This document shows, piece after piece, positions 25,828 to 41,288 of a DNA stretch of 64,000 nt. Origin of the DNA: Aestuariivita sp. (lineage in GTDB: Bacteria > Pseudomonadota > Alphaproteobacteria > Rhodobacterales > Rhodobacteraceae); NCBI GenBank assembly GCA_026710045.1, contig JAPORU010000047.1, positions 455 to 64,454 on the forward strand. Reading direction: 5' to 3'. A model generated the notes under the pieces. The model did not search any database. It was not told the DNA's origin and saw only the letters and a list, made by a program, of their open reading frames with translations. How positions within the stretch are numbered: position 1 is the stretch's first letter; the number at the start of each line of letters is the position of its first letter. The translations under genes were made by a program, and so were the position numbers.

Positions 25828-25875
25828 CATTATTCGCCCCGTATCGTACTCAATGAATTTAGTTGGAAAGAGGGA

Positions 25876-26955: not shown

Positions 26956-27314
26956 CAATAAGTAGGTTTAGATGCGTTTGAACAATCGAGGTGACAATTA
27001 AGGTGTTTTGGAATGTCCAGCGTTTACCATCTACTGACGTGGCACTGATTGGTCCCCACGTCTATTTTCTTGACTGATTTGAAGAACTGGCTTGGTTGAA
27101 TGAACAGAATTTGAGAAATGCCGTTGAGTATTTGTCATAAGCGTCTTGCGGGAATTTCACGTCAGCTAGTCATTCAATATTCTCTTATGAAGGATAATCA
27201 AAGCGAGGAGATCTGATCCATAACGTATCAAGAGTTCGGGCCAATGTTTCGTCATGACAATAACGTGATTCGATCCGACGCATCCGTTTTGAGAGTTGTG
27301 AACACAACTTACAC

Positions 27315-27719
27315 TTAGCCCTTTTGCCGAATGTAAGCTGTGGCTTCGATTTCGATGAGGGCTTCGTTCTCGACAAAATCTTTGATGATCAGCATCGACA
27401 TGGCCGGGAAATGTTTCCGGAAGATACTTTGATAGGTCTTGCCGATCTCATGCTGTTTGGCCAGGTATTCTGTCTTGTCTTTTATGAACCAGGTAAGACG
27501 CCCAATATCCGTGACATCTCCACCGGCAGCATGGACAACTTCGACAATATTGGTGAGCGCTTGCTTCATTTGGGGGATGAAGCCACCCTCTACGAATCGC
27601 TTCTCCTTGTCCCAGCCAATCTGCCCGCTGATATGGAGCGTGCCGTCCTCCATCAGCATGCCATTGGCATATCCAAGCGCGGGAGCCCAGCCTTCGGGGT
27701 GAATGGTCTTTGGATACAT
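27315..27719 (-). CDS. RidA/YjgF family protein
   Basis: 134 aa. ISGQIGWD...ALTNIVEVVHAAGG...EIEATAYI. Confidence 0.8.
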   Translation of the reverse strand: MYPKTIHPEGWAPALGYANGMLMEDGTLHISGQIGWDKEKRFVEGGFIPQMKQALTNIVEVVHAAGGDVTDIGRLTWFIKDKTEYLAKQHEIGKTYQSIFRKHFPAMSMLIIKDFVENEALIEIEATAYIRQKG

Positions 27720-28021
27720 TGTCAGGTCTCCACGAGTGTATTCGTTCTATCCTGCACGAGACACAAGCTTTATAGTGGGTTGTGCTGTGTGATGGTGACA
27801 CGCGTTTGAGGCGCTGTCGATGGTCAGCAAATTGTAGGTGACATAGCGACCGATATCCACACCGTTCAGAATATGCATCTTAATCAAAGGTCGTAGTTGC
27901 AGAGGACCGGGTAAAGTTCAGAGTAGGTTTCTCCGGGTTAACTTCATCAGTCATCTTAAAGACTTCTCCAGTGCCACATCGGATATGGACAAGTGGGGCT
28001 GTCATTTGAGTTTCTCTTGAT

Positions 28022-29209
28022 TCAGGTGACACGGGATTTGGTTTGGTATTTTGGATCCCGCCAGAGCTCGTCATGGATCACTTCTTCGATGATATTGATG
28101 GCGGCCATGACGTCAGCCCTGTCGATATAAAGAGGCGTAAAACCAAAACGCATGATATTCGGCGCACGGAAATCGCCGATCACGCCCCGATCGATCAAGG
28201 CTTGCATGGCTGCGTATCCATGCTCAAAAGTGAATGAAACCTGTGACCCACGCTGGTCTGCATTGCGCGGAGAGGCGAGTGTCAGTTGCGGGCAACGGGA
28301 CTCGATTTCCTGTATGAAGGCTTCACACAATGCCACTGTGGAGGTGCGCAACTCTTCCATGTCGACGCCTTTCCAAACATTGAGTGCGGCGTCCAGAATC
28401 GACAACTGGATAATCGGCGGTGTGCCGATGCGCAGACGTTCGGTGGACATGGCTGGTCGATAGCCAATCTCCATCGCAAAAGGTGCCTCATGACCCAACC
28501 AGCCGGCAAGGGCCGGCTCGGTTGACGCGATGATATCGGGACGTGCGTAGATAAATGCGGGTGCACCCGGACCGCCATTGAGATATTTATAGGTGCATCC
28601 GACCGCGAACTCGGTATTCGAACCGATCAGATTGACCGGTATGGCCCCGGCGGAATGCGCGAGATCCCAGATCATCACCGCACCCGCCGCATGGGCCTTT
28701 GCTGTTATTGCCGCCATGTCGTGCATCCGACCCGAGCGGTAATCGACCTGCGTTAGCATCACGACGGCTACATTGTCTGTGATCTCCTGCGCCACATCTT
28801 CTGGTGTAGGGACGCGCAGTTCATAGTCTTTGTCTACGGTGCTGATCAGCCCTGTTGCCATATAAAGATCGGTAGGAAAGTTGCCATTGTCCGAAAGGAT
28901 GACTCGGCGCTCTGGGCGCATCTTGAGAGCCGCCGCCAGTGCTTGATAGACTTTGATCGACAGGGTGTCCCCAGTGGCCACGGATCCCGCCGGTGCGCCG
29001 ATCAATCCTGCGATCCGGTCGCCTACGCGCGTTGGAAGCGACATCCAATCTGCCGTGTTCCATGCCTTGATGAGCTCGCTACCCCATTCCCGTGTGATAA
29101 CATCCTCAGCCCGAGCTGCTGCGCCTTTGGGTAAAGGTCCCAGCGAATTGCCGTTGAGATAGATCACCCCTTCGGGTAGATCAAATAATGCTTTACGCGG
29201 TAGGGTCAT
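28022..29209 (-). CDS. kynU: kynureninase
   Basis: 395 aa PLP enzyme. YLNGNSLGP...WDLAHSAG...CTYKYLNGGPGAPAF. Confidence 0.9.
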   Translation of the reverse strand: MTLPRKALFDLPEGVIYLNGNSLGPLPKGAAARAEDVITREWGSELIKAWNTADWMSLPTRVGDRIAGLIGAPAGSVATGDTLSIKVYQALAAALKMRPERRVILSDNGNFPTDLYMATGLISTVDKDYELRVPTPEDVAQEITDNVAVVMLTQVDYRSGRMHDMAAITAKAHAAGAVMIWDLAHSAGAIPVNLIGSNTEFAVGCTYKYLNGGPGAPAFIYARPDIIASTEPALAGWLGHEAPFAMEIGYRPAMSTERLRIGTPPIIQLSILDAALNVWKGVDMEELRTSTVALCEAFIQEIESRCPQLTLASPRNADQRGSQVSFTFEHGYAAMQALIDRGVIGDFRAPNIMRFGFTPLYIDRADVMAAINIIEEVIHDELWRDPKYQTKSRVT

Positions 29210-30045
29210 AGCTCACCTCTCAGGTACCAGAGTTCAGGAAAGAGCTCGACGTCCAGCATGCGCCGGAGATACGACACACCCTCTGTGCCGCCGGTTCCGC
29301 GCTTAAAGCCGATCACGCGCTCTACAGTTGTGACGTGGTTGAAGCGCCAGCGACGGAAGTAATCCTCGAGGTCCACCAGCTTTTCACCCAGCTCGTAGAG
29401 CGACCAGTAGACATCGATGTTTTTATAAACGGTCTTCCATCGGGCCTGAATGTTCGGTACCGCTGTATGTGGGCTGTCGAGCTGCGGTGTAGGTACGTCA
29501 TTCTCGTGGCCGTCTACCGTGCGGAACAGGTGGCGCACCACTTCGTCGTAAAAGCTTGGTTGCGTCAGTTCTTTCAACAGCATCGCGTGAACCTCAGGCA
29601 CATGGACATGTGGCCGCAGCATGTTCGGGTTGCGGTTGCCCAGAATATATTCGATCATTCGGTATTGATATGACTGAAAACCCGAAGATTGCCCCAGCGC
29701 CTTGCGGAACGTGGTATAATCTGCAGGCGTCATGGTGCGCAACACGTCCCATTGGTTGTTTAGCTGTTCAAAGATGCGGCTGACACGGGCCAGCATCTTG
29801 AACATGGTTGCCGTGTCACCTGATTTTAGCGCGTCGCGCGCGGCACCTAATTCGTGCAGAATCAGTTTCATCCACAATTCGGACGTCTGGTGCTGAATGA
29901 TGAACAGGAGTTCATCGTGGGCCGTGCTGAGCATCTGCTGAGCATTGAGAACTGGCGAAAGATGGAGATAATCGCTGTAGGACATGACGTCCTTGAGATC
30001 CATCTTGGCACCGCCGGTTCCGGGATTGTCGACCGATGTGCTCAT
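29206..30045 (-). CDS. kynA: tryptophan 2,3-dioxygenase
   Basis: 279 aa. YSDYLHL...HDELLFIIQHQTSELWMKL...GTGGTEGVSYLR. A 4-nt overlap with kynU. Confidence 0.9.
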   Translation of the reverse strand: MSTSVDNPGTGGAKMDLKDVMSYSDYLHLSPVLNAQQMLSTAHDELLFIIQHQTSELWMKLILHELGAARDALKSGDTATMFKMLARVSRIFEQLNNQWDVLRTMTPADYTTFRKALGQSSGFQSYQYRMIEYILGNRNPNMLRPHVHVPEVHAMLLKELTQPSFYDEVVRHLFRTVDGHENDVPTPQLDSPHTAVPNIQARWKTVYKNIDVYWSLYELGEKLVDLEDYFRRWRFNHVTTVERVIGFKRGTGGTEGVSYLRRMLDVELFPELWYLRGEL

Positions 30046-31661
30046 GACGACGTTTCCCGGAGTTTGAAACGTTGGATCTTGCCGCTTTCGGTTTTTGGCA
30101 AAGTCTTTGCGAAGACCACTGAGCGGGGATACTTGTATGGGGCGATGGTCGTCTTGACGTGATCCTGCAGATGCTTGATCAAGGCATCGGAAGGGACCGC
30201 GTTTATATCCAATACGACATGTGCCTCGACAATAGTGCCACGCTCTTCATCCGACGTGCCGATTACTGCGCATTCCGCGACCGCCTCATGGGCAAGCAGC
30301 GCCGCTTCGACTTCCGGTCCGGCGATGTTGTAACCTCCTGAAACGATCATATCGTCGTTACGAGCCGCAAAGTGGAAATAGCCTTCGTTATCTTGGCTGA
30401 AGGCATCACCGGAGATATTCCAGCCGGCTTGAACGTATTCCATCTGACGCTCGGCGTGCAGATATCGGCAGCCGGTAGGCCCTCGGATGGCGAGTCGTCC
30501 AACTTCGCCTCGTGGTAGTTCTGCGCCATCGGGGCCGATCACCTTGGCCTCGTACCCGGTCACGGGTTTGCCTGTGCAGGCGGGCTTATGATCTTCAAAT
30601 CGGTTGGTAATGAAAATGTGCAGCATCTCGGTAGCGCCGATTCCATCCAACATGGGCTTGTCGGTTTTCTGTTGCCATTCGTCATAGACAGGTGCCGGCA
30701 AAGTTTCACCTGCTGAGACGGCAGCGCGGAGGGAAGAGAGGTCTGCGCCTTCATCCATGGCTCGAAGCATGGCTCGATACGCGGTGGGCGATGTGAAGCA
30801 GACGGTTGCCTTATAGGTTTCAATGATCTCAATGATGTTTGGCGGAGAGGCATTTTCCAAAAGCGTCGCTGTGGCCCCGAAACGCAAAGGGAAGATCGCG
30901 AGTCCACCGAGCCCGAAGGTGAAGGCCAAGGGTGGAGAGCCGATGAACACATCGTCTGGCTGTACGTTGAGTACTTCCTTCGCGTAGCCGTCCGCGATGA
31001 TCAACAGGTCGCGGTGGAAGTGCATGGTCGCCTTGGGGTTGCCGGTTGAGCCTGAGGTAAATCCGATCAAGGCGACATCGTCCTGGGCCGTTGGAATGGA
31101 TTCAAACTGAACGGGTTTGGTCAATGCCAGTCGGTCAAGTTCAGCATCATGGTTGGCGGTGCCGTCAAAGCCGACGACGGTTTTCAGATGTGCGCTGTTC
31201 TTGGCGCAGGCAATCATCTCGTCCATCAGCCGGGTATCGCACAAGGCATGTGTGATTTCGGCTTTCTCGACGTATTTGGCAAGCTCGCTGACGCGTAACA
31301 TCGGCATGGTGTTTACCACTGCCGCGCCGACCTTGGTCGCTGCCAGCCAGCACGCCACCATGGCTGGGTTGTTGGCGGAGCGGATCAGCACACGATTGCC
31401 TGGCCGCACACCCAGGTCTTCAACCAGCGCATGGGCCAAACGGTTGGTCCAGTCGGTCAGTTCCTTGTAGGTGCGTCGCCGCCCGTTACCGATCAGCGCC
31501 GTGTGATCGCCAAAGCCTTTAGCGACCATTGTGTCGGTCAATTCACGAGCCGCATTGAGACGATCCGGATAGTTGAACCCCTCCAGTAACAGATCCGGCC
31601 ATTGTTCTATCGGGGGGAGATGGTCGCGTGTAAAGGTGTCACTATGTGCTGATGGTTTCAT
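30042..31661 (-). CDS. aryl-CoA ligase, most like 2-aminobenzoate(anthranilate)-CoA / benzoate-CoA ligase
   Basis: 539 aa. AMP-binding motifs FTSGSTGNPKA and SGDAFSQDNEGYFHF...GKIQRFKLR. The N-terminus TFTRDHLPPIEQWPDLL is typical of aromatic acid-CoA ligases. The specific assignment rests on operon context. Confidence 0.75.
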   Translation of the reverse strand: MKPSAHSDTFTRDHLPPIEQWPDLLLEGFNYPDRLNAARELTDTMVAKGFGDHTALIGNGRRRTYKELTDWTNRLAHALVEDLGVRPGNRVLIRSANNPAMVACWLAATKVGAAVVNTMPMLRVSELAKYVEKAEITHALCDTRLMDEMIACAKNSAHLKTVVGFDGTANHDAELDRLALTKPVQFESIPTAQDDVALIGFTSGSTGNPKATMHFHRDLLIIADGYAKEVLNVQPDDVFIGSPPLAFTFGLGGLAIFPLRFGATATLLENASPPNIIEIIETYKATVCFTSPTAYRAMLRAMDEGADLSSLRAAVSAGETLPAPVYDEWQQKTDKPMLDGIGATEMLHIFITNRFEDHKPACTGKPVTGYEAKVIGPDGAELPRGEVGRLAIRGPTGCRYLHAERQMEYVQAGWNISGDAFSQDNEGYFHFAARNDDMIVSGGYNIAGPEVEAALLAHEAVAECAVIGTSDEERGTIVEAHVVLDINAVPSDALIKHLQDHVKTTIAPYKYPRSVVFAKTLPKTESGKIQRFKLRETSS

Positions 31662-32817
31662 GTTTTTCTCTTTGATGTGTTGCGAGCGTCTGACGCGCGA
31701 TCACCACACGCTGGACATCTGAAGCGCCTTCGTAAATGCGCAAGGCCCTGACTTCGCGGTAAAGTCTTTCGACGGTTTCACCTGTCTTTACCCCGTCCCC
31801 GCCGTGCAATTGCACGGCTTTGTCGATTACCTGGTGCGCTTGGTCGGTGGCGAAGAGCTTTGCCATTGCCGCCTCGCGGGTAATGCGCGGTGTACCATTG
31901 TCCTTTGCCCAGGCGGCGCGGTAGACAAGAAGCGCGCTGGCATCGACAGTCAGTGCCATGTCTGCGACATGCCCTTGTACTAACTGTCGATCCGCAAGGG
32001 CCGTGCCTTGAATCTGACGTGTGGTGACGCGCGTTAAAACTTCATCAAGTGCCCTGCGCGCAAAACCTACAGCCGCCGCTCCCACCGTCGAGCGGAACAC
32101 ATCGAGAACCGACATGGCAATTCTAAACCCTTGTCCTGGTGCGCCGATCATGGCCGTTACGGGCACATGGACCTCGTTGAACGTCAGCGTCGCTAGCGGG
32201 TGCGGTGCGATGGTTTCCAGGCGTTCTGTAATCTCAAGACCCGGTGTGTCGGCAGGTACGATGAAGGCTGACATACCCTTTGCGCCCGACGCTTCACCGG
32301 TCCGTGCAAATACTGTGTACATATCCGCAATACCGCCGTTCGAGATCCAGGTTTTCTTGCCGTGCAGCACATAATGTCTGCCGTTCCGTGTAGCACTCAT
32401 CGTGTTGGCCGCCACATCCGAGCCACAGCCAGGCTCGGTGAGGGCGAAGGCCGAAATGGCCTTTCCTGCGCGCGTTAACGGTAACCACTCTGCCTTTTGC
32501 TCTGGTGAACCAAACAGGGAAATTGCTCCTGTGCCCAGACCTTGCATAGCAAAGGCGAAATCGGCCAGCCCGTCGTACCGGGCCAAGATTTCCCGGATCA
32601 GGCAGAGCGTGCGCACATCGAGTGTTCCCTCTTCTGCCCCAGAATGTATGGCAAAACCGGCCTCGCCGAGTATGGTAACGAATTGACGACACGCGGCGTC
32701 GGTATCGGAATGATCCACGGCGCTTAGGCTTGCGGCAGACCATGCGTCTAGTTCTGCTGCTAAATTGCGGTGTTTCTCTTCGAAAAAGGGCCAGGTGAGA
32801 AAGCTCTGATCCATCAT
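31642..32817 (-). CDS. acyl-CoA dehydrogenase family protein
   Basis: 391 aa. FALTEPGCGSD...KTWISNG...RIYEGASDVQ. Confidence 0.9.
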   Translation of the reverse strand: MMDQSFLTWPFFEEKHRNLAAELDAWSAASLSAVDHSDTDAACRQFVTILGEAGFAIHSGAEEGTLDVRTLCLIREILARYDGLADFAFAMQGLGTGAISLFGSPEQKAEWLPLTRAGKAISAFALTEPGCGSDVAANTMSATRNGRHYVLHGKKTWISNGGIADMYTVFARTGEASGAKGMSAFIVPADTPGLEITERLETIAPHPLATLTFNEVHVPVTAMIGAPGQGFRIAMSVLDVFRSTVGAAAVGFARRALDEVLTRVTTRQIQGTALADRQLVQGHVADMALTVDASALLVYRAAWAKDNGTPRITREAAMAKLFATDQAHQVIDKAVQLHGGDGVKTGETVERLYREVRALRIYEGASDVQRVVIARQTLATHQREKHETIST

Positions 32818-33629
32818 TAATCGCCTTCGAATACAGGTCGCTCTTTGGCAACAAAAGCGTGGTAGGCGCGGTGGAAGTCCCGCCCTTGCATACAGATCGC
32901 CTGTGCTTGTGCCTCGGCCTCAATGGCCTGATCGATACTCATCGACCATTCTTGTGCTAGCATCGTTTTTGTCATCATGTTGGCCCAGGTCGGCCCATCC
33001 GCAATACGTTTCGCCAGGCCTAGGGCTGTTTCTGTCAGCTGTTCCATTGATACAGTCTGGTTGAAATACCCCCATGCCACGCCTTCCTCGGCACTCATGG
33101 ACCGCCCTAAATAGAGCAGTTCTGCCGCGCGCCCCTGGCCAATAATCCGGGGCAGGATTGCACAGGCGCCCATATCGCAACCTGCCAGGCCTACTCGGTT
33201 AAACAGGAAAGACGTCTTCGCTTCAGGTGTGGCAATCCGTAGATCAGATGCCATTGAAATGATCGCACCTGCACCGGCACAAACGCCGTCAACGGCGGCA
33301 ATGATCGGTTTGCCGCAATTTACCATTGCTTTAACCAGATCACCGGTCATGCGTGTGAAGGTCAGAAGCTCTTTCATGCTCATTCTGGTCAGCGGTCCGA
33401 TGATGTCATGCACATCACCTCCGGACGAGAAGTTACCCCCGTTCGATGCAAAAACCACGGCCTTTACGCTATCGGCATAACGCAGATCGCGAAACCAATC
33501 CCGGAGTTCGGCATAACTCTCAAAGGTTAGAGGGTTTTTCCGTTCCGGCCTGTCCAATGAGACCGTCGCGATTCCATCTTCGATCTTGCACAAGAAGTGC
33601 TGTACGTCAGTTCGCATTTTTTTTCTCAT
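32817..33629 (-). CDS. enoyl-CoA hydratase/isomerase (crotonase) family protein
   Basis: 270 aa. [11 protein letters not shown]...[10 protein letters not shown]...[16 protein letters not shown]. Confidence 0.9.
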
Positions 33630-34089
33630 CGTTCAGGGTTTCATTCATTCGGTCCAGCCGCGCCATCATGTCCTTGATGTCATTTTCATCAAGCTTGCCG
33701 AGGATCTCATCAATCCATGCTTCATGTGCTGTGGAATGCGCGGCAAACATGTTGCATCCCTTCGCTGTCAGACGCACCAATTGAGCGCGGCGGTCCCCCG
33801 GAACCGCAACACGTAATGCCAAGTCTTCCTCGGTGAGTTTGTCAACGATTCCGGTAACGTTGCCACCTGAAACCCTCAATAGTTTGGAGATCTCGCCCAT
33901 CTTCAATCCGTCGGGTGCCCGAGATAACGCCGACATCACGTCAAAGCGTGGAAGTGTCCAATCGTGGTCGTTTCTGAATCTGCGTCGGATTTCATCTTCG
34001 ATCAGGCTGCTTGCTTTCAATAGTTTCAGCCAGAGTCGCAAGCGTTTCTTTGAGAGTGGCTGAGTGGCCTGATTCGGCTTGGGGATCAT
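33607..34089 (-). CDS. MarR-family transcriptional regulator
   Basis: 160 aa. Winged-[13 protein letters not shown]...[22 protein letters not shown]...[10 protein letters not shown]. Embedded in the operon, overlapping both neighbouring genes. Confidence 0.85.
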
Positions 34090-34829
34090 ATTTCGCCTCC
34101 TGAAACACTCAATGCATGTCCATTAACAGACCGAGCGATTTCGGAGCAGAGCCAAAGTACAGTGCCCGCGATTTCGTCGGTTTGAATAAATCTTTTTTGT
34201 GGGTTTTTTGCGTAGAGGGCTGCGCGGGCCTTGTCTTCGGACATACCGGTCTTTTCGATAATGTTGGCGATGGAGCGTTCCAACATTGAGGTTTCAATAA
34301 AGCTGGGGCAGATTGTATTGACGGTAATACCGGTGGCGGCAAGTTCCAGCGACAGTGCGCGAGTGAGACCAATGACACCGTGTTTTGACGCGCAATAGGC
34401 CGAGACATAGGGATAGCCTTTCAGGCCTGCTGTTGACGCAATGGCAATCAAACGACCCCAAGCTGCGGCCTTCATGTCCGCTAAAGCCGCTTGCCAGACA
34501 TTCACAACGCCAATGAGGTTTACGGCTAGCATTGCCTGCAGTTGGCTGGTTGCCATTTGAGCGAAGGGGACACTGTCTGCTATTCCTGCATTCGCAATGA
34601 CCACCGAGATTGGCCCCTGTTGTGAGCGCGCCGCGTTAAACGCTTCAACCACGGCGCCTGCATCTGTCACATCGCACAATTGATAGGGCAGGTTTTGCGC
34701 TTGTAACGGTTCTTCGTGACGTCCTATAATTGTGACCCGTGCTTCGGCCTTGGCAAGCGTCCGCGCGGTCTCTGCACCGACTCCCGTGCCGCCACCGGTC
34801 ACAATGATATGTTTGCCGGATAGGGTCAT
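34086..34829 (-). CDS. SDR-family oxidoreductase (3-hydroxyacyl-CoA dehydrogenase-like)
   Basis: 247 aa. TGGGTGVG Rossmann motif and the YCASKHG catalytic motif. Confidence 0.85.
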
Positions 34830-37117
34830 ATTTGGATTGTCTCTATCTCGCGGTCAGCCAGACGCCAGGCCTGATCGCGGCCCGCTTCGTACGGCTTGGC
34901 CCAATCAGCTTGTCGATCTCCAATCTTTACGCCTTGGTGAAGGGTCCAGTAAGGATCGGCCAGATGCGGACGCCCCACGGCGACCAGATCGGCGCGACCG
35001 GCCATCAGGATTGAATTGGCGTGATCTGCGTCGTAGATATTGCCTACCGTCATGGTTTTGACGCCTGCGTCATTTCGGATACGGTCACTGAACGGCGTCT
35101 GGAACATACGACCATAGACGGGTTTGGCATCGGTCGTGGTTTGCCCGGCGGACACGTCAATGAGATCTGCACCGGCATCGGTGAATGCGCGCGCAATTTT
35201 CACCGCCTCTTCGGGTGTAACACCTGCGTTTCCTACCCAGTCGCTGGCCGAGATGCGCACTGACATGGGTTTGGCCTTGGGCCAAACAGCGCGCATGGCC
35301 TGAAATACCTCCAGCGGATAACGCATCCGGTTTTCCAGGCTGCCACCGAATTCATCCTGACGGGTGTTGGATACCGGGGAGATAAAGCTGGAGATTAAAT
35401 AGCCATGTGCCGCGTGCAGTTCAATCATGTCAAAGCCCGCGTGGTCGGCCATATGGACAGATGCGACAAATTGGTTGCGGACCTCGTCCATCTCGGTCCG
35501 CGTGATTTCGTGCGGGGTCGCGTTGTCTACGGACCAGGGGATGCTTGATGCGCTCACAAGAGTCCAGTTCCCTGCAGCGAGTGGCTTGTCCATTCCCTCC
35601 CAACCGATATTGGTGGAGCCTTTGCGGCCCGAATGTCCGATCTGGCAGCAGATCTTGGCGTCTGTAAACTCATGCACGAAATTGGTTAACCGCTTCCAAC
35701 TCGCCTTATGCTCGGGTGCATAAAGACCCGGACAACCTAGTGTGATCCGGCCCTCGGCTGAGACACAGGTCATCTCGGTATACACCAATCCTGCACCGCC
35801 TTTAGCGCGTTCGCCATAATGGCACAGGTGCCAATCGTTTGGGATACCGTCCTTGGCTAGGTATTGTGCCATGGGTGAAACTACGATCCGATTCTTCAGT
35901 TTAAGGTCCCGAAGCTTTAATGGCACGAACATGGGTGCGCGAACCGGCGCATTTGCGGACATTCCCGCCTGATTCATGAACCACCGCTCGGCGTTTTCCA
36001 TCCAGTCTGGATCGCGTAGCCGTAGGTTTTCATGGCTGATCCTCTGTGAGCGTGTCAGCATCGCGTAATTCAATTGCACTGAGTCGAACCGCAGGTAGCG
36101 CTCTACCTGTTCGAACCATTCCAGCGAGTTGCGAGCCGCCGATTGCAAGCGTAGTACTTCGAGCCGACGCTCCGCTTGATACCGGGTGAAGGCTATATTC
36201 AGGCTGTCTTCGATGTGAATGTATTTGGCCAGCGCAATGGCGCATTCCATGGCAAGTTTGGTGCCGGAGCCAATCGAAAAATGTGCCGTGGCCGAGGCAT
36301 CCCCAAGCAGAACCACGTTCTCGTGATGCCAGGTTTCACACAACACCCGTGGAAAGCGAAGCCAAGCGGAGCCACGGATGTGGTTGGCGTTGGTCATTAA
36401 AGAATGCCCTCCGAGGTGATCTTCGAAGATTTTCTCGCAAACCGCAATGCTTTCTTGCTGGGACATGTCGGCAAAGCCGAACCTGTCAAAGGTTTCCTGT
36501 GCGCATTCCACGATGAACGTTGCGGTGTCGTCATCGAATTGATAGGCGTGGACCCAGACCCAGCCATGCTCCGTCTCTTCGAAGATGAAGGTAAAGGCAT
36601 TGTCGAATTTCTGGTGTGTTCCGAGCCAAACAAACTGGCACAACCGCTGATCGATACTGGGTCGGAAGCGATCTGCGTAGAGCATGCGCGTCTTGGAATT
36701 TAGACCGTCGCTGCCCACCACCACGTCAAAGCTGTGGCGATATATTTCGGCACTCTCGGCTTCCGTCTCAAACCGGAGTTCGACACCCAATTCACGCGCC
36801 CTGTCTTGTAACAGCAAAAGCAGTTTTCTGCGCCCGATTCCGCAGAAACCATGCCCTGACGAGATGTGTGTTTCGCCTCGGTAATGCAGAGTGATATTAT
36901 CCCAATAGGCAAAGTTGTCGCCAATAGCCTTGGCCGAGACGGGGTCATTATTTGTAAGGTTACTGAGCGTCTCGTCCGACAAAACAACGCCCCAGCCAAA
37001 AGTGTCGTCACAGCGGTTGCGCTCGATGACGACTACCTCGACTGTCGGATCGCGTAGCTTCATTGATATCGCAAAGTAGAGCCCCGCAGGGCCGCCGCCT
37101 AAACACGCAATTTGCAT
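34826..37117 (-). CDS. bifunctional FAD monooxygenase / OYE-type NADH:flavin reductase (2-aminobenzoyl-CoA monooxygenase-reductase / salicylyl-CoA 5-hydroxylase family)
   Basis: Start trimmed to [20 protein letters not shown] (GxGxxG). The N-terminal half is a flavin monooxygenase. The C-terminal half is old-yellow-enzyme-like ([11 protein letters not shown]...[14 protein letters not shown]). Confidence 0.8.
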
Positions 37118-37197
37118 CGCGGTCTCCCAATCGGTTGCTATCCAAGAGTTGCAGCAATTGATAGTGATTCTGATATGTCTAGAAGAGTCGCTTAAAT

Positions 37198-37213
37198 ATT
37201 TCAAGCTTGAAAT
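37198..37213. promoter_or_regulatory. perfect 16-bp palindrome, candidate MarR operator
   Basis: ATTTCAAGCTTGAAAT is self-complementary. It lies about 85 bp upstream of the inferred start of the first gene of the minus-strand operon that encodes a MarR regulator. Confidence 0.3.
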
Positions 37214-38082
37214 CTTGATGTATTATCTATCAGCGGAGGAATCGAGCGATTCGGGTGATTGTTCGGCGATGTTCGTGTAAGAATCCCAGGCGATGTATCC
37301 GATCTTTGTCTCTGGGATTGTCGGGCCGCGTCGGACGTATCTGCCAAAGTCTGCCTGCAGTGAATTCATATGTTGCTTTGGTTTGACAGAGTCTGATTGC
37401 GGGTCAGATTCAGGGTCGACGATTCCCGTACGATCAGGTTTGGTGGGCGATACAAGCTGGTCGGTGCCAAGAGTTGGATTTTCAACTGTATGATCACCGA
37501 TGTGTTTATGATGCGGGTCAAATCTGAAGGATAAGATTGAGGGTGTTAATATCGACGGCACGTTTTCTTCCAGGCGTCGATCATTGGTATGATGCAGATG
37601 GATGAGGTCTTTGTACGTGGTGAAAAAATGTCGAATATTGAGGGTCGTGCCAGGATTATTAGCTGTTTGAATTGGATTGATTTCGGCATCAACCGGGGCG
37701 TCATCGGTGCGCTATCCGTATCTATACGATCGATTGCAGTCTGTTCGGCAAGACGCTTGCTACACTTCAGCTTTTGAGAACGATCTGGTTGACGTGCAGA
37801 TTGAGATATCACAAGGTCTGTTTGCGTTTCTGTGGCAGGGACGGATGACGGGCGCGTATAAAAAACTTTGTTACATTGATCAGCTTGGTTGCGTGTAATG
37901 ATTGTGGCAAGGTGCTGAGAGTCGAACGTCAGGCCTGCGGCATGTACGGTGGGAACGGAGTGTTCAATGAGTATGGGTGTTCAGCACGTCATGAACCTTG
38001 AGATCGTGAACAGTTTTGAGTGTATGCATGATATCTATATGCCGACCCTTGGTCGCGGGATTATGGGCATGCAGGTGTTTCG

Positions 38083-38901
38083 GTGAGCAATGTGGTGGGG
38101 ATCGATTGGGAAGACGCTTTCACCAATGTCGATTACATTCCGGATGGTCGGCGTTATCCGGATAGGTGGGCTGAGCGTGCGGCGGCGTTTCGGGCGAATT
38201 GGGACGGACTGCTGGATCTCGTCTATGGTGAGCACCCGCGCGAACGGTTCGACCTGTTCTTTCCAAAAGGGAAGCCTAAAGGCCTTATTGTGATCGTTCA
38301 CGGTGGCTACTGGATTGCTTTCGATAAAAACAGTTGGTCTGATCTCGGGGCTGGCCCCTTGTCGCTCGGTTGGAGCGTTGCTTTGCCTAGCTACACGTTA
38401 GCCCCGGCGGTATCGATCCCGGAGATTACTGAACAGATTGGGCGCGCTATTAGCGTCATGGCTGCGAAGATCGACGGCCCGATCCGCCTGATTGGTCATT
38501 CGGCGGGTGGTCATCTGGTAGCTCGAATGGCATGCGATACCGGGCCATTGTCGAATGCGATCTCTCGACGTCTTAAAAGAGTGGTCTCGGTCAGTGGTCT
38601 TCATGACCTTCGTCCTTTGCTCAATCACAGTATGAATGACAAGCTGCGTCTAACCGAGGCCACCGCCGCAAAGGAAAGTGTCGTGTTGTCCAAGCCGTTA
38701 GCTGGGGTGGACGTTACGGCTTGGGTGGGGGCCCGGGAGCGGCCCGAATTTCTTCGTCAGTCTGCCTTGCTTGCTGAGGCCTGGGGTCGTATCGGAGCGA
38801 ACATCCGTGTTGTAGTCGACCCGTATCGGCACCATTTCGACGTGATCGATGGGCTCAAAGATCCAAACCACCCTTTATGCCAAAGTCTCGCAGGAGAATA
38901 A
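38083..38901 (+). CDS. alpha/beta-hydrolase arylformamidase (kynurenine formamidase, AFMID/Bna7 type)
   Basis: 272 aa. HGGYW oxyanion motif, GHSAGGHL nucleophile elbow and a C-terminal HHFDVIDGL histidine motif. Divergent from the kyn/abm operon. GTG start. Confidence 0.7.
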   Translation: MSNVVGIDWEDAFTNVDYIPDGRRYPDRWAERAAAFRANWDGLLDLVYGEHPRERFDLFFPKGKPKGLIVIVHGGYWIAFDKNSWSDLGAGPLSLGWSVALPSYTLAPAVSIPEITEQIGRAISVMAAKIDGPIRLIGHSAGGHLVARMACDTGPLSNAISRRLKRVVSVSGLHDLRPLLNHSMNDKLRLTEATAAKESVVLSKPLAGVDVTAWVGARERPEFLRQSALLAEAWGRIGANIRVVVDPYRHHFDVIDGLKDPNHPLCQSLAGE

Positions 38902-38902
38902 G

Positions 38903-39420
38903 ATGGTTGTGAATCGGACGTGCGATGCACCGTCGCTATCGTGACGATCGACAATTCGCCCATGAACGTGACGACCTCTGTCGCAGTGCGCAAGGGCTCC
39001 GGGATTTGATGGATCAGATCGAAACCGACAGTACCCGTAAGGTCGTTGTCCTGATCTGCATCGGTCAAATTTTTTTGTAAGGGCTGACATCAAGGAATTC
39101 GGCCGAACACCGGTCGCGCCGTATCAACCGAAATGTGCGTAGGGGATCGGCGATGTGTAAAGCCTTGGGTTGTCGTCATTCATGACACCGATTTGCGCGG
39201 TGGTTTGGAAACGGCTATGGATTGCCGCCATCGGATCGTTGACACAGATGCAAACGCTTGATCGTCGAAAGTGAAGTTCGAATGATAAGCCGAGAACGGC
39301 TTTCTTCCATTTTTTGACGCATCATAAGGGCGGAGGATGACGTCAAGGTATGTTCAGGACAGCTTGATGTGAACGATAGCCTGCACATGCTGAACAACCC
39401 TGATGAAGGATAACATGTGT
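38903..39420 (+). pseudogene. decayed enoyl-CoA hydratase (crotonase/FadB N-terminal-like) pseudogene
   Basis: Crotonase blocks are readable across three frames, separated by stops. They are VAIVTIDNSPMNV, LRDLMDQIETDSTRKVVVLICIGQIF(stop), ADIKEFGRTPVAPYQP and KPWVVVIHDTDLRGGLETAMDCRHRIV(stop). The end coordinate is approximate. Confidence 0.7.
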
Positions 39421-39616
39421 GCTCTTTTCTGTTCAAGGATTTGGGCTTGGAAGCCAATACCGAATGAGAGCCGGTTCCCATATCGTGTCAAGCGTCCTCA
39501 TTACCCTTCTCGTGGTCCACATGTTTGTTCTTCGCTGAACGGTCGCTCGCGTGTATCCGAATTCAACATGGTTTGATGTTTCTATAACACGTGAGCGACG
39601 TGTTTTCGGCCCGTTC

Positions 39617-40360
39617 TTACTGGACGGTTTTTTGATCAAGTGTTTTGTCACAAAGCTTGTTAATTGCCGTATGAAGTAAAACGGTAAGAATGGCGAGCGT
39701 GAGGAGTGCCGCGAACATAAGGTCTGTTTTCGCGCGTCCATTTGCTAACAGCATTAGATACCCGAGACCGCGTGACGCTCCCACCCATTCGCCAATGATG
39801 GCGCCAATGGGAGCATACACAGCGGCCAATCGCAGGCCCGAAGCAAACCCGGGTTTGGCTGCGGGAATTCGGATATGCCACATGATTCGCGTTGGTGATG
39901 CGCCCATGATACGCGCTAAGTTTAGCCATTCCGGGTTGGTTCGCATGAGTGCATCAAAAAAAGATGATGTAATTGGGAAATAGATAATTATGAGCGCCAT
40001 GAATATCTTTGAACTCAATCCATATCCGAGCCATAGGGTCAAAATTGGCGCTAAAGCGAACACTGGGATGGCTTGACTGAATACCAGCATCGGTCTTACC
40101 AATGTCCGTGCCATCGGTGAGGCCGCTAAGACAATGGCCGATAGACCTCCCAGAAGGGCGCCAAAGGCTAAGCCAAGCAAGACTTCAATCATGGTGATCG
40201 ACGCATGTTCAGCCAGCAAGGCCCGGCTTGTCCAGATTGTTTCTGCAACGAGGGTGGGGGGTGGCAAAATGAAGCGCGGAACATCAGAGATAACTATGAT
40301 GCTTTGCCAGAATGCGAGACCGACAAGAGTGGCCGCAATTGCGCCTTTCCAGCCACTCAT
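39617..40360 (-). CDS. ABC transporter permease (NitT/TauT family, ThiX-like)
   Basis: 247 aa with six TM segments and a binding-protein-dependent transport signature region. Confidence 0.85.
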   Translation of the reverse strand: MSGWKGAIAATLVGLAFWQSIIVISDVPRFILPPPTLVAETIWTSRALLAEHASITMIEVLLGLAFGALLGGLSAIVLAASPMARTLVRPMLVFSQAIPVFALAPILTLWLGYGLSSKIFMALIIIYFPITSSFFDALMRTNPEWLNLARIMGASPTRIMWHIRIPAAKPGFASGLRLAAVYAPIGAIIGEWVGASRGLGYLMLLANGRAKTDLMFAALLTLAILTVLLHTAINKLCDKTLDQKTVQ

Positions 40361-40550
40361 GATATCACTATTGGAGTGTTGCCGTGGGACAAAATGGAGA
40401 GCAATCGGACTCGTGTAACGTCAACTGTGAGCAAATGGCATTTCGGTGTACTCTTCAAGCTCGCACAAAGGATTATAAAGGTATGGAGTGGTTCTTTGGA
40501 GGAAAGTCGATGTGAAGGTCCCGTGATGTTGCGGCAGGCGGGTACAAAAA

Positions 40551-41288
40551 TCATGTTCCAGATCTCAACTCTTTGAGCAGTTCTGCTTGGCTTTTCATAA
40601 CCTCATGATCATCGATGGATCGTGGTATCGATCCAGATGGAGATTTTATTTTTTGTAAACCATGTTTTCGCATAATAAAGATGTTTTGTCCGAGTCGGGC
40701 CGCTTCACCTGGATCGTGGGTTACAAGAAGTACGGTACAGCCGGAGAGAACAGACGTTGTTAATTCTTGCATGTTTGCACGGGTTACCGCATCAAGCGCA
40801 GAGAAGGGTTCATCCAGAAGTACGATGGGACAATCTTCCATGAGCGTGCGGGCAAGAGCCGCACGCTGACGTTGTCCACCAGAAAGGGCATGGGGTTTTT
40901 TCTTGCCATGGTCGCGCAAACCAACGCGCTTGAGCACATCGGAAACTTTGTCGACATCGGGCTTCTCGCCTCTCAGGCGTGATCCAATTGAGACATTGTC
41001 CGATGTTGACAGCCACGGAAGAAGGAGATCATCTTGCGCCATCAACGCAATGTGACGTGGCTCTGATCTTAATTGACCGTGAAAATCTATTCCTTCTCGG
41101 AGCCCCGCAAATAACTTTAGGATTGTTGACTTTCCAACACCACTCGCTCCAAGAAGGCAGGTCCATTCGCCATGCGGCAAATCGAGGTGTACTCCATCAA
41201 AGATCAAAGATCCGTCAATTGACGCGGATCCTGATAGCTGCATCATACGTGCATAATTCTTCATTGAAATTCGTGACACATTCATCAT
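40551..41288 (-). CDS. ABC transporter ATP-binding protein (ThiZ-like)
   Basis: Walker A GASGVGKST, signature LSGGQRQR, Walker B IVLLDEP. Confidence 0.9.
   Translation of the reverse strand: MMNVSRISMKNYARMMQLSGSASIDGSLIFDGVHLDLPHGEWTCLLGASGVGKSTILKLFAGLREGIDFHGQLRSEPRHIALMAQDDLLLPWLSTSDNVSIGSRLRGEKPDVDKVSDVLKRVGLRDHGKKKPHALSGGQRQRAALARTLMEDCPIVLLDEPFSALDAVTRANMQELTTSVLSGCTVLLVTHDPGEAARLGQNIFIMRKHGLQKIKSPSGSIPRSIDDHEVMKSQAELLKELRSGT

What the first reader, a model, noticed from the sequence alone, without database searches (positions are those of the whole stretch)
28022..38901. Single overlap-coupled operon joining tryptophan-to-anthranilate enzymes with a CoA-dependent 2-aminobenzoyl-CoA pathway
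Eight minus-strand genes are linked by 1-23 nt overlaps. In transcription order they are the fused FAD-monooxygenase/OYE-reductase, SDR, MarR, crotonase, acyl-CoA dehydrogenase, aryl-CoA ligase, kynA and kynU. An AFMID-type arylformamidase is transcribed divergently at 38083.

The monooxygenase-reductase fusion, the aromatic CoA ligase, the beta-oxidation-like enzymes and the MarR regulator together match the architecture of the hybrid aerobic 2-aminobenzoate (abm) pathway described in Azoarcus evansii. The related salicylyl-CoA 5-hydroxylase system of Streptomyces has a similar fusion protein.

In the best-known bacterial kynurenine pathways, anthranilate is instead handled by anthranilate dioxygenase to give catechol. 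Placing kynA-kynU inside the CoA-pathway operon predicts a complete Trp to formylkynurenine to kynurenine to anthranilate to 2-aminobenzoyl-CoA route under one MarR-controlled transcript.

The steps after the non-aromatic CoA product are poorly resolved biochemically. The SDR, crotonase and ACAD here are direct candidates for them, and no thiolase is encoded in the operon. By eye this block also looks more GC-rich than its flanks.
Basis: partly seen in the sequence, partly recalled or inferred. Interest (0 to 1): 0.6.

Follow-up and report, generated by a model that had tools for sequence, protein, structure and literature searches.

The report
Tryptophan-to-anthraniloyl-CoA degradation operon
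A sponge-associated marine bacterium carries an acquired gene block that most likely burns tryptophan via anthranilate and its CoA ester. The same block is widespread in its family and sits on a plasmid of a cultured relative, so it is a useful but not surprising variant of a known pathway.

Summary
Eight minus-strand genes (28022-37117) overlap by 1-23 nt in the stated order, and the block is more GC-rich than the genome (0.552 against 0.499).

- The core fus-SDR-MarR-crotonase-ACAD-ligase(+Rid) is conserved in about 70 Rhodobacteraceae genera.
- kynA/kynU have joined it in at least six different arrangements (17 of 71 genera), and also in other families and another class.
- kynA and the fusion gene co-occur (64/71 against 29/130 genera).
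- The ligase's closest solved relative is an anthranilate-CoA ligase.
- The genome has no KynB and no anthranilate dioxygenase.

New points:
- The same operon lies on a Sagittula stellata E-37 plasmid (73-89% amino-acid identity).
- A 16-bp palindrome upstream is a conserved operator.
- The divergent hydrolase falls in the one clade of the "HaHSL lipase" family that holds every kynA/abm-linked copy. It is a candidate bacterial serine-type kynurenine formamidase.
- The cluster's Rid lacks the canonical Arg, and its crotonase lacks both catalytic Glu. Both traits are conserved.
- The "spacer" and the stretch after the hydrolase are decayed ACAD and FadB-like genes, and a thioesterase is missing. 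This is a reduced copy of the cluster.

Transcription and all enzyme activities are untested. Interest is moderate.

The parts
27315..27719 (-). Rid-family protein lacking the canonical Arg (FPAM instead of FPAR). Candidate deaminase for the enamine/imine CoA intermediate.
   Evidence: It scores below the RidA cut-off (54.7 against 106 bits). Alignment to UK114/RidA shows Met at the Arg position. All 53 cluster Rid homologues have Met there. A Rid homologue lies in the cluster in most of the 70 loci. It is 76% identical to the Sagittula cluster Rid.
27720..28021 (.). 302-nt gap between kynU and Rid, where relatives carry a thioesterase gene. No remnant is detectable here.
   Evidence: Sagittula has kynU>thioesterase>RidA. 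A thioesterase homologue is present in about 45 of 74 loci. tblastn finds none in the window gap.
28022..29209 (-). kynU, kynureninase (PLP-dependent): kynurenine to anthranilate plus alanine.
   Evidence: TIGR01814 281 bits, above the 246 cut-off. 418 bits, full length, to P. fluorescens kynureninase 1qz9, with the CTYKYLNGGPG lysine motif conserved.
29206..30045 (-). kynA, tryptophan 2,3-dioxygenase (haem).
   Evidence: TIGR03036 380.8 bits, just under the 390.7 cut-off. 340 bits, full length, to Cupriavidus TDO 2nox. The IIQHQTSELW, YxxFR, WRFxH and GFKRGTGG motifs are conserved.
30042..31661 (-). Aryl-CoA ligase, probable anthranilate (2-aminobenzoate)-CoA ligase.
   Evidence: TIGR02262 benzoate-CoA ligase family, 360 bits against a 375 cut-off. 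The best solved relative is anthranilate-CoA ligase 4wv3 (294 bits), ahead of benzoate-CoA ligases (245-250 bits).
31642..32817 (-). Acyl-CoA dehydrogenase of the conserved core.
   Evidence: All three ACAD Pfam domains are present. The nearest named families are acryloyl-CoA reductase, cyclohexane-1-carbonyl-CoA DH and glutaryl-CoA DH, all far below cut-off. It is conserved next to the crotonase in about 65 loci.
32817..33629 (-). Crotonase-superfamily protein (PRK08258 type) lacking both canonical hydratase glutamates. Candidate ring-acting enzyme.
   Evidence: NF006107 471 bits, above the 330 cut-off. The next named hits are the PaaG isomerase and the alternative oxepin-CoA hydrolase. The best solved relatives are 3g64 and then PaaG 4fzw_C. 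The motifs GAGAI..MASD and FLF[TN][11 protein letters not shown] are conserved in all orthologues.
33607..34089 (-). MarR-family regulator embedded in the operon.
   Evidence: Pfam MarR_2/MarR. It holds the same position in about 65 loci.
34086..34829 (-). Short-chain dehydrogenase/reductase.
   Evidence: adh_short 170 bits. It lies after the fusion gene in most loci. It is mosaic: 46% identity in L031 where neighbouring genes are 85-88% identical.
34826..37117 (-). FAD monooxygenase::old-yellow-enzyme reductase fusion, probable 2-aminobenzoyl-CoA monooxygenase/reductase.
   Evidence: NF006101 1263 bits, above the 1078 cut-off. The N half resembles VioD and the C half resembles OYE. Homologues at 77-86% identity are named anthraniloyl-CoA monooxygenase by JGI and salicylyl-CoA 5-hydroxylase by NCBI.
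37198..37213 (.). 16-bp perfect palindrome ATTTCAAGCTTGAAAT, the probable MarR operator in the promoter region.
   Evidence: It lies at -96 to -81 from the fusion ATG. At -58 to -108 in 69 related loci it matches exactly in 12, with <=2 mismatches in 37 and with <=3 in 51. It is present in the Sagittula fus|ACAD intergenic region.
37239..38083 (+). Pseudogene of a second acyl-CoA dehydrogenase: 5'-truncated, read in three frames, ending at the hydrolase start.
   Evidence: tblastx colinear with L013. tblastn with the L013 and Sagittula ACAD2 covers residues ~108-412 in frames 3, 1 and 2. GC is 0.476. The intact gene lies divergent from fus in L013, L025, L030, L034 and Sagittula; in L055 an ACAD2 homologue lies about 6 kb downstream of fus on the same strand.
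38083..38901 (+). Alpha/beta-hydrolase (HGGYW and GHSAGG motifs), candidate serine-type kynurenine (aryl) formamidase.
   Evidence: NF058665 368 bits, above the 320 cut-off. PDB hits are 2pbl (248 bits) and Drosophila KFase 4e11 (E = 1.3e-12). It falls in the 30-member clade that holds all 21 kynA/abm-linked copies (100/99 support). KynB is absent from the genome.
38932..39255 (+). Weak remnant of the N-terminal crotonase part of a FadB/FadJ-like gene.
   Evidence: tblastn with the L013 and Sagittula FadB-like proteins gives 30-34% identity over about 110 residues. Other strains carry a 1-nt insertion at 39158.

Best explanation
The block at about 27.3-39.3 kb is a horizontally acquired catabolic island for tryptophan. 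It joins the kynurenine pathway's anthranilate branch to the CoA-dependent ('hybrid', abm-type) aerobic anthranilate pathway.

Proposed route:
1. KynA oxidises Trp to N-formylkynurenine.
2. The divergent alpha/beta-hydrolase removes the formyl group. The genome has no KynB.
3. KynU releases anthranilate and alanine.
4. The ligase makes 2-aminobenzoyl-CoA.
5. The FAD-monooxygenase::OYE fusion hydroxylates and reduces the ring to 2-amino-5-oxocyclohex-1-ene-1-carbonyl-CoA.
6. The Arg-less Rid, the Glu-less crotonase, the SDR and the ACAD process this non-aromatic thioester. The likely chemistry is hydrolytic deamination, hydrolytic ring opening and one beta-oxidation-like round.

The embedded MarR probably represses the promoter by binding the conserved palindrome at -96 to -81. 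That palindrome sits in what is, in relatives, a shared divergent promoter region.

What is shown here: gene identities, operon architecture, conservation, co-occurrence, the operator footprint, and purifying selection.
What is inferred: all substrates, the order of the lower steps, regulation and co-transcription.

This copy is reduced. A second ACAD and a FadB-like gene are pseudogenes, and a thioesterase is missing.
For: Architecture and families.

Conservation: the core order fus>sdr>marR>ech>acad>lig(+rid) is conserved in about 65-70 of the sampled genera.

Linkage to kyn genes:
- kynA lies within 7 kb of the fusion gene in 17 of 71 fusion-positive genera, in at least six arrangements.
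- The linkage also occurs outside the family, in G239, G542, G482, G546 and G517.
- Co-occurrence counts are: both 64, fusion only 7, kynA only 29, neither 101.

Enzymes:
- The ligase is closest to anthranilate-CoA ligase 4wv3.
- KynA and KynU align full length to solved enzymes with key motifs conserved.

Alternatives absent: no KynB in any of 76 genomes, although 69 have kynA. No AntA-type anthranilate dioxygenase in this genome.

Hydrolase: it is homologous to a solved KFase. Copies lie directly beside kynA in G121, G155, G151, G157, G046, G098 and G144. All linked copies form one clade.

Operator: conserved across loci of about 50-68% GC.

Rid and crotonase: their active-site departures are conserved.

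Acquisition: GC/GC3 shift. The same-genus genome G035 lacks the fusion, kynA and the hydrolase, and synteny ends after dcd. The same block lies in a different context in G186 and on a Sagittula plasmid.

Maintenance: of the 27 listed strain substitutions scored in kynU/kynA/ligase, 21 are synonymous and 6 are not.

Literature: Arthrobacter Rue61a degrades anthranilate only via the CoA route, and C7H7NO3- and C7H8O4-CoA esters were detected in it (PMC3534580).
Against: - No expression or enzyme data exist for this organism. The available runs are DNA-like.
- NCBI names the fusion family 'salicylyl-CoA 5-hydroxylase'.
- The ligase and kynA both score slightly below their curated cut-offs.
- The hydrolase family is found in about 157 of 201 genera, many of them without kynA. 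It therefore has other roles as well, and its only characterised member was assayed on artificial esters (PMC6921082).
- Three accessory genes present in relatives are dead or missing here, so the lower pathway may be incomplete or may rely on housekeeping enzymes.
- The GC shift is moderate (z about +1.3).
- The statement that the crotonase lacks the two catalytic Glu rests on my recollection of the rat enoyl-CoA hydratase motifs.
Confidence: 0.78

Rival explanations
1. The cluster degrades salicylate (or another ortho-substituted benzoate) through salicylyl-CoA and gentisyl-CoA, as in the Streptomyces sdg system. On this reading kynA/kynU are neighbours with a separate role.
For: The NCBIfam NF006101 equivalog is named 'bifunctional salicylyl-CoA 5-hydroxylase/oxidoreductase', and the protein scores 1263 bits against it. 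The ligase belongs to the broad benzoate-CoA ligase family.
Against: kynA/kynU are translationally coupled to the ligase (4-nt overlaps). They have been recruited to the cluster independently in many arrangements and lineages. The fusion and kynA co-occur strongly. No gentisate 1,2-dioxygenase lies in the block, and there is no thioesterase in the window. A conserved Rid-family protein makes sense for an amino substituent but not for a hydroxyl. The ligase is closest to a solved anthranilate-CoA ligase.
Confidence: 0.06
2. The island is a decaying, non-functional remnant in this sponge-associated genome.
For: A second ACAD and a FadB-like gene are pseudogenes, and the thioesterase present in relatives is absent. 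The host is a sponge-associated bacterium of 3.4 Mb.
Against: All nine core genes, the hydrolase and the Rid gene are intact and full length against their profiles and the Sagittula orthologues. The operator is a perfect palindrome. Listed strain differences are mostly synonymous, 21 against 6. Most family members (about 64 of 70 loci) also lack ACAD2 and FadB-like genes next to the cluster, so these genes are accessory.
Confidence: 0.08
3. The divergent hydrolase is a general esterase, or an aryl-acylamidase acting on N-formyl- or N-acetyl-anthranilate. On this reading it is not the kynurenine formamidase, and deformylation is done by another enzyme or spontaneously.
For: The family is present in many kynA-less genomes. 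HaHSL hydrolyses short p-nitrophenyl esters. In G044 a clade-K copy sits in an abm cluster although the genome has no kynA.
Against: All 21 kynA/abm-linked copies fall in one clade, separate from the 40 never-linked copies. Seven copies lie directly beside kynA on the same strand, including in genomes without the fusion gene. No KynB occurs in any of the 76 genomes. The protein is homologous to Drosophila KFase.
Confidence: 0.25

Closest known systems
abm clusters of Azoarcus (Aromatoleum) evansii for aerobic 2-aminobenzoate metabolism (Schuhle et al. 2001, J Bacteriol 183:5268). The paper was not held here, so its content is cited from my own knowledge and from reviews PMC8388817 and PMC4539516.
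   Same: Shared parts are the monooxygenase::OYE fusion, a benzoate-CoA-ligase-family aryl-CoA ligase, three beta-oxidation-type enzymes, a MarR regulator and a YjgF/Rid-type protein. Both are organised as an operon.
   Different: This cluster has no ABC substrate-binding protein gene. kynA and kynU are fused onto the 3' end. A serine-type formamidase candidate is encoded divergently. The host is an alphaproteobacterium. Direct sequence comparison with AbmA/AbmG was not possible.
Plasmid-borne cluster of Sagittula stellata E-37 (NZ_CP155731.1, locus tags ABFK29_RS23595-23650).
   Same: Gene order is identical: fus>SDR>MarR>ECH>ACAD>ligase>kynA>kynU>...>Rid, at 73-89% amino-acid identity. The operator is the same.
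   Different: Sagittula keeps an intact divergent ACAD plus FadB-like pair and a thioesterase between kynU and Rid. It has no hydrolase next to the cluster. The window's copy is chromosomal-looking and reduced.
Anthranilate CoA-thioester pathway of Arthrobacter sp. Rue61a, on pAL1 and the chromosome (PMC3534580).
   Same: [quoted passage not shown] It is the only anthranilate route in that organism. CoA esters consistent with hydroxylated and deaminated ring intermediates were observed.
   Different: It is fed by quinaldine degradation, not by kynA/kynU. It uses PaaX-type regulators. The host is an actinobacterium. I recorded no window-to-Arthrobacter identity: the Arthrobacter plasmid hits were counted but not listed, and the listed actinobacterial plasmid hits (Rhodococcus, Streptomyces) are 48-49% identical to the window's fusion.
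Bacterial kynurenine pathway, anthranilate branch: kynA-kynB-kynU of Pseudomonas, Cupriavidus and Bacillus.
   Same: KynA and KynU are orthologous (340 bits to 2nox, 418 bits to 1qz9).
   Different: There is no KynB. Anthranilate is not passed to an AntABC dioxygenase and catechol but to a CoA ligase.
Eukaryotic serine kynurenine formamidases (Drosophila KFase 4e11, yeast Bna7, mouse AFMID).
   Same: Alpha/beta-hydrolase fold, an HGGYW-type oxyanion motif, a GHSAG nucleophile elbow, and significant sequence similarity.
   Different: The window's protein is bacterial and belongs to the NF058665 'HaHSL' family, which is annotated as a lipase. Its activity on N-formylkynurenine is untested. The literature treats this enzyme type as eukaryotic (PMC4243253).

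Membership tests
abm-type 2-aminobenzoyl-CoA pathway cluster | Single polypeptide fusing an FAD aromatic monooxygenase with an OYE-type FMN reductase (about 85 kDa) | tested here: met
   763 aa. PF01494 plus PF00724. NF006101 1263 bits, above the 1078 cut-off. N half resembles VioD, C half resembles OYE.
abm-type 2-aminobenzoyl-CoA pathway cluster | Aryl-CoA ligase of the benzoate-CoA ligase family that activates anthranilate | tested here: inconclusive
   TIGR02262 360 bits, below the 375 cut-off. The closest solved relative is anthranilate-CoA ligase 4wv3. Substrate preference cannot be tested in silico.
abm-type 2-aminobenzoyl-CoA pathway cluster | Beta-oxidation-type enzymes (crotonase, ACAD, hydroxyacyl-CoA/SDR dehydrogenase) in the same operon | tested here: met
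   Conserved order in about 65 loci.
abm-type 2-aminobenzoyl-CoA pathway cluster | MarR-type regulator and a YjgF/Rid-type protein in the cluster | tested here: met
   MarR. The Rid gene lies 302 nt downstream on the same strand and is conserved in related clusters.
abm-type 2-aminobenzoyl-CoA pathway cluster | ABC-transporter substrate-binding protein gene in the cluster (A. evansii; from my own knowledge) | tested here: not met
   None lies between 27315 and 39255. The nearby NitT/TauT-type ABC genes run with thiD.
abm-type 2-aminobenzoyl-CoA pathway cluster | Orthology to the characterised AbmA/AbmG sequences | not tested
   The sequences were not retrievable with these tools, and the source paper was not held.
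sdg salicylyl-CoA/gentisyl-CoA pathway (Streptomyces sp. WA46) | Gentisyl-CoA thioesterase and gentisate 1,2-dioxygenase encoded with the hydroxylase and ligase | tested here: not met
   No cupin or gentisate dioxygenase and no thioesterase lie in the block.
Bacterial kynurenine pathway (kynA, kynB, kynU) | Haem tryptophan 2,3-dioxygenase with the distal and proximal His and the substrate Arg/Tyr | tested here: met
   340 bits to 2nox over the full length. The motifs carrying these residues are conserved (residue roles from my own knowledge). TIGR03036 scores 380.8 bits, 10 bits under the cut-off.
Bacterial kynurenine pathway (kynA, kynB, kynU) | PLP-dependent kynureninase | tested here: met
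   TIGR01814 is above its cut-off. 418 bits to 1qz9.
Bacterial kynurenine pathway (kynA, kynB, kynU) | Metal-dependent cyclase-fold formamidase KynB | tested here: not met
   TIGR03035 gives no hit at E <= 1e-10 in the window's genome, and none above the cut-off in 76 genomes.
Serine-type kynurenine formamidase (AFMID/Bna7/Drosophila KFase) | Alpha/beta-hydrolase with an HGG(Y/A)W oxyanion motif and a GxSxG nucleophile, and detectable homology to a solved KFase | tested here: met
   VHGGYW and GHSAGGH are in the translation. 4e11 matches at E = 1.3e-12.
Serine-type kynurenine formamidase (AFMID/Bna7/Drosophila KFase) | Hydrolysis of N-formylkynurenine | not testable with these tools
   Only context evidence is available: adjacency to kynA and clade structure.
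Canonical RidA (2-iminoacid deaminase) | Conserved Arg (E. coli R105 / UK114 R107) that binds the substrate carboxylate | tested here: not met
   FPAM replaces FPAR. Met occupies this position in all 53 cluster homologues. TIGR00004 scores 54.7 bits, below the 106 cut-off.
Canonical enoyl-CoA hydratase | Two catalytic glutamates (rat ECH E144 and E164; from my own knowledge) | tested here: not met
   The corresponding motifs read GAGAI(I)SMASD and [15 protein letters not shown], and are conserved in all orthologues. The alignment to rat ECH was made by eye from memory.

The most novel reading that the evidence does not exclude
The unresolved lower half of the 2-aminobenzoyl-CoA pathway may run without a thiolase. 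On this reading the Arg-less Rid hydrolyses the enamine/imine of 2-amino-5-oxocyclohex-1-ene-1-carbonyl-CoA to ammonia and 2,5-dioxocyclohexane-1-carbonyl-CoA. The Glu-less, PaaG-like crotonase then opens that beta-keto ring hydrolytically, in a BadI-like retro-Dieckmann reaction, to a 4-oxopimeloyl-CoA-type product. The ACAD and SDR would finish the job. Upstream, clade K of the 'HaHSL lipase' family would be the true bacterial serine-type kynurenine formamidase, replacing KynB throughout Rhodobacteraceae.
Probability: 0.2. Interest if true: 0.65.

Novelty: new variant of a known kind. Interest (0 to 1): 0.4.

Why it matters
The CoA-dependent aerobic anthranilate pathway has been known since the early 1990s, but its steps beyond the first non-aromatic thioester have never been worked out.

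This analysis shows that, in a large marine bacterial family, the pathway is the usual partner of tryptophan cleavage. It defines a small conserved gene set for the missing steps: an Arg-less Rid, a Glu-less crotonase, an SDR and an ACAD, with or without a thioesterase. It gives a conserved operator for the MarR regulator. It also points to a cultured strain, Sagittula stellata E-37, that carries the same operon on a plasmid, where all of this can be tested.

The analysis further suggests that a protein family annotated as 'hormone-sensitive lipase' includes a clade of bacterial serine-type kynurenine formamidases, an enzyme type that the literature treats as eukaryotic.

For the sponge symbiont itself, the island indicates use of host- or community-derived tryptophan as a source of carbon and nitrogen.

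Tried and rejected
1. Direct comparison with AbmA/AbmG and SdgC/SdgA. The sequences could not be fetched, and Schuhle et al. 2001 (PMC95408) is not held. I used family models, solved structures and genome context instead.
2. RNA evidence for co-transcription. The runs that hold the sequence are DNA-like sponge (meta)genomes, and the RNA-labelled runs hold none of it.
3. A precise 'empty site' in the same-genus genome G035. Synteny (plsX-fabH-merR-dcd) ends after dcd, and the right flank is not nearby. Absence is shown, but exact island borders are not.
4. Rfam scan of the block, including the 965-nt 'spacer': no hits.
5. The spacer as a repeat or mobile element: it has no other copy in the genome. 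It proved to be a dead ACAD gene.
6. The homology is on the plus strand.
7. Promoter and terminator scans inside the operon: not above shuffled expectation, so uninformative.
8. The first hydrolase tree contained seven sequences translated in the wrong frame. I corrected this and rebuilt the tree.
9. Literature searches coupling kynureninase or kynurenine with (2-aminobenzoyl|anthraniloyl)-CoA monooxygenase, Roseobacter or Sagittula found only PQS biosynthesis papers.

Full report
OBSERVATION

Using longest-ORF starts, successive genes overlap by 4, 4, 20, 1, 23, 4 and 4 nt.

Pfam and NCBIfam identify them as follows:
- kynureninase: TIGR01814, 281 bits, above cut-off
- tryptophan 2,3-dioxygenase: TIGR03036, 380.8 bits, 10 bits under cut-off
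- benzoate-CoA-ligase-family ligase: 360 against 375 bits
- an acyl-CoA dehydrogenase
- a PRK08258-type crotonase: 471 bits
- MarR
- an SDR
- a 763-aa FAD-monooxygenase::OYE fusion: NF006101, 1263 bits

KynA aligns full length to Cupriavidus TDO, and KynU to Pseudomonas kynureninase. The haem-ligand and PLP-lysine motifs are conserved.

The block's GC is 0.552 against 0.499 for the 3.43-Mb genome. The GC3 of its genes lies at the 65th-97th percentile of genome ORFs, whereas flanking genes lie at the 4th-64th. The compositional impression is therefore correct but moderate.

An independent assembly from another sample covers 25798-41000 in one contig, with 112 mostly transition differences and the same flanks. 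Of the 27 listed substitutions scored in kynU, kynA and the ligase, 21 are synonymous. The genes are therefore real and under purifying selection.

WHAT ORGANISM AND HOW COMMON

Homologues of the fusion at 77-86% identity come from Rhodobacteraceae/Roseobacteraceae (Mameliella, Sagittula, Primorskyibacter, Roseobacter), with Roseibium and Hoeflea at about 78-79%. JGI names them anthraniloyl-CoA monooxygenase and NCBI names them salicylyl-CoA 5-hydroxylase. The runs that hold the sequence are sponge metagenomes.

In a sample of one genome per genus of the family, 71 of 201 carry a full-length fusion above the curated cut-off. The same-genus genome G035 does not.

I fetched 20 kb around all of these fusion genes and mapped the window's proteins onto them. 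The order fus>SDR>MarR>crotonase>ACAD>ligase is conserved in about 65 loci. A Rid-family gene is nearly always part of the cluster. It lies between the ACAD and the ligase, after the ligase, or divergently upstream.

KYN GENES

kynA lies within 7 kb of the fusion gene in 17 of the 71 genera, in at least six different arrangements:
- ligase>kynA>kynU>Rid, as in the window
- ligase>kynU>kynA
- ACAD>kynA>ligase
- Rid>kynA>kynU
- divergent hyd-kynA
- divergent kynA-kynU

The linkage recurs outside the family, in five genomes of four other families, two of them in another class.

Where the genes are unlinked they still co-occur. The counts are: fusion and kynA together 64, fusion only 7, kynA only 29, neither 101.

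Other evidence points the same way:
- The ligase's closest solved relative is an anthranilate-CoA ligase (294 bits) and not a benzoate-CoA ligase (about 250 bits).
- A conserved Rid protein is in the cluster.
- No gentisate genes are present.
- The genome has no AntA-type anthranilate dioxygenase.

Anthranilate is therefore by far the best-supported substrate, and the 'salicylyl-CoA' name appears to be a labelling matter.

THE FORMAMIDASE

None of the 76 genomes examined has a KynB above cut-off, although 69 have kynA. The window's genome has no hit at all.

The divergent ORF 38083-38901 scores above cut-off for NF058665, 'HaHSL family hormone-sensitive lipase'. Its best solved relatives are an uncharacterised Ruegeria esterase (2pbl) and, at E = 1.3e-12, Drosophila kynurenine formamidase.

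The HaHSL paper assayed only artificial esters and does not mention formamidase activity. The literature treats serine-type KFases as eukaryotic and KynB as the bacterial enzyme.

The family is broader than kynA, occurring in about 157 of 201 genera. Even so, copies lie directly beside kynA on the same strand in G121, G155, G151, G157, G046, G098 and G144. Copies lie within about 3 kb in G080, G022, G037, G116, G003 and G176. Several of these genomes have kynA unlinked to the fusion gene or lack the fusion gene altogether.

A maximum-likelihood tree of 70 family members splits into two clades with 100/99 support. One clade of 30 contains all 21 kynA- or abm-linked copies, including the window's. 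The other clade of 40 contains none.

I therefore regard the window's protein as a good candidate for a bacterial serine-type kynurenine (aryl) formamidase, at about 0.65. A related aryl-acylamidase role is the main alternative.

REGULATION

The 16-bp perfect palindrome ATTTCAAGCTTGAAAT (37198-37213) lies at -96 to -81 from the fusion ATG.

It recurs at -58 to -108 in 69 related loci whose GC ranges from about 50% to 68%. It matches exactly in 12, with <=2 mismatches in 37, and with <=3 in 51. It is also present in the Sagittula intergenic region. The chance expectation for <=2 mismatches in 350 nt is about 1e-4 per locus.

This is a strong phylogenetic footprint. The MarR protein encoded inside the operon is the obvious binder, but that is an inference. 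In relatives the palindrome sits in a roughly 110-145-nt divergent promoter region, so it may control both directions.

THE 'SPACER' AND THE REDUCED STATE OF THIS COPY

The 965 nt between the fusion gene and the hydrolase have low GC (0.476), no Rfam match and no other copy in the genome.

They show colinear translated similarity, in three frames on the plus strand, to a second acyl-CoA dehydrogenase. In L013, L025, L030, L034 and Sagittula that gene lies divergently next to the fusion gene, and L055 has a homologue about 6 kb downstream of fus. The similarity covers residues ~108-412 and ends exactly at the hydrolase start.

The stretch 38932-39255 keeps a weak remnant of the crotonase N-terminus of a FadB/FadJ-like gene. 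That gene follows the ACAD in those relatives.

Relatives also carry a thioesterase between kynU and Rid, or elsewhere in the cluster (about 45 of 74 loci). The window's 302-nt kynU-Rid gap has no detectable remnant of one.

The sponge-associated genome therefore holds a reduced version of the island: core genes intact, three accessory genes lost.

ORIGIN

G035 (same genus) shares plsX-fabH-merR-dcd and then loses synteny. It lacks the fusion, kynA and the hydrolase.

The nearest relative of the block, in G186, has the same ten genes (hyd<|fus...kynU>Rid) at 66-88% identity except the SDR (46%), with GC 0.57 and unrelated flanks.

Sagittula stellata E-37 carries the operon on a 183-kb plasmid at 73-89% identity.

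Together with the GC/GC3 shift, this supports horizontal acquisition. The direction and date of the transfer are not determined.

LOWER PATHWAY (INFERENCE)

Two conserved departures from canonical enzymes stand out.

First, the Rid protein has Met where RidA/UK114 has the Arg that binds the substrate carboxylate. This holds for all 53 cluster Rid homologues. That fits a substrate without a free alpha-carboxylate, such as the enamine/imine CoA thioester made by the fusion enzyme.

Second, the crotonase lacks both hydratase glutamates and keeps an invariant Asp in 'GCDMGA'. The motif positions come from my own knowledge of rat ECH. Its nearest characterised relatives are the ring-acting PaaG isomerase and an oxepin-CoA hydrolase type.

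A coherent but unproven scheme has three steps:
1. Rid-assisted hydrolytic deamination to 2,5-dioxocyclohexane-1-carbonyl-CoA. A C7H8O4-CoA ester was seen only in anthranilate-grown Arthrobacter (PMC3534580).
2. Hydrolytic ring opening by the crotonase. BadI is the precedent (from my own knowledge).
3. One beta-oxidation-like round by the ACAD and the SDR.

This scheme would explain why the cluster encodes no thiolase.

COMPARISON WITH THE KNOWN AND NOVELTY

The gene set matches the A. evansii abm clusters in the fusion, ligase, three beta-oxidation-type enzymes, MarR and a YjgF/Rid protein. It lacks their ABC binding protein.

I could not compare sequences with AbmA/AbmG directly. Membership therefore rests on family models and context.

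The held literature links kynurenine with anthraniloyl-CoA only in PQS biosynthesis. Earlier notes of this scan report kyn plus 2-aminobenzoyl-CoA clusters in other phyla. They are unchecked, but they agree with my survey that the coupling is general.

I class this as a new variant of a known kind. It is an abm-type cluster extended by kynA/kynU and a serine-type formamidase candidate. It is widespread in sequenced genomes, already auto-annotated gene by gene, but apparently not described as a pathway unit.

A specialist would find the coupling logical rather than surprising. The value lies in the sharply defined candidate set for the unresolved steps, the operator, the formamidase clade, and a cultured strain in which to test them.

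VERDICT

Confidence in the overall function is about 0.78. Interest is 0.4.

Noticed in passing
window 38083-38901; loci L079-L138: NCBIfam NF058665 ('HaHSL family hormone-sensitive lipase') covers two well-separated clades (100/99 support). One holds every kynA/abm-linked copy. The other is never linked and also occurs in kynA-less genomes. The family name rests on p-nitrophenyl-ester assays of one member.
   Followed up: yes
L071-L074 (G111, G114, G189, G022): A second subfamily of monooxygenase::OYE fusions is about 46% identical to the window's and scores about 1000 bits, below the NF006101 cut-off. Its neighbours differ from the abm set. In L072 it is flanked by a clade-K hydrolase and a thioesterase homologue. 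Its substrate is unknown.
   Followed up: partly
window 34086-34829; L031 9364-9999: The SDR gene is mosaic among otherwise colinear clusters. It is 46% identical in L031, where neighbouring genes are 85-88% identical, but 75-79% identical in L025 and Sagittula. This suggests gene replacement inside the operon.
   Followed up: no
window 29209: In other sponge-derived strains a T>C change turns the kynU start ATG into GTG. The same change is synonymous in the overlapping kynA reading frame.
   Followed up: partly
window 25749-25827: Short contigs at about 180-1900x depth, and contig breaks in all four runs, mark a short high-copy repeat between the MerR-like gene and dcd.
   Followed up: no
window 39158: Strains X2, X3 and X5 carry a 1-nt insertion here, inside the FadB-like remnant. 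This fits a region that is non-coding.
   Followed up: no
L139 (Sagittula stellata E-37 plasmid NZ_CP155731.1) 3098-7550: Next to the intact divergent ACAD/FadB-like pair lie a cytochrome P450, a glutamine amidotransferase, a glutamine-synthetase-family protein and an AraC regulator. This gene set resembles gamma-glutamylation-type arylamine catabolic modules. It is possibly another aromatic-amine module on the same plasmid.
   Followed up: no
window 39617-43344: The NitT/TauT-type ABC transporter genes to the right of the island run with thiD. These genes are not part of the catabolic island.
   Followed up: no
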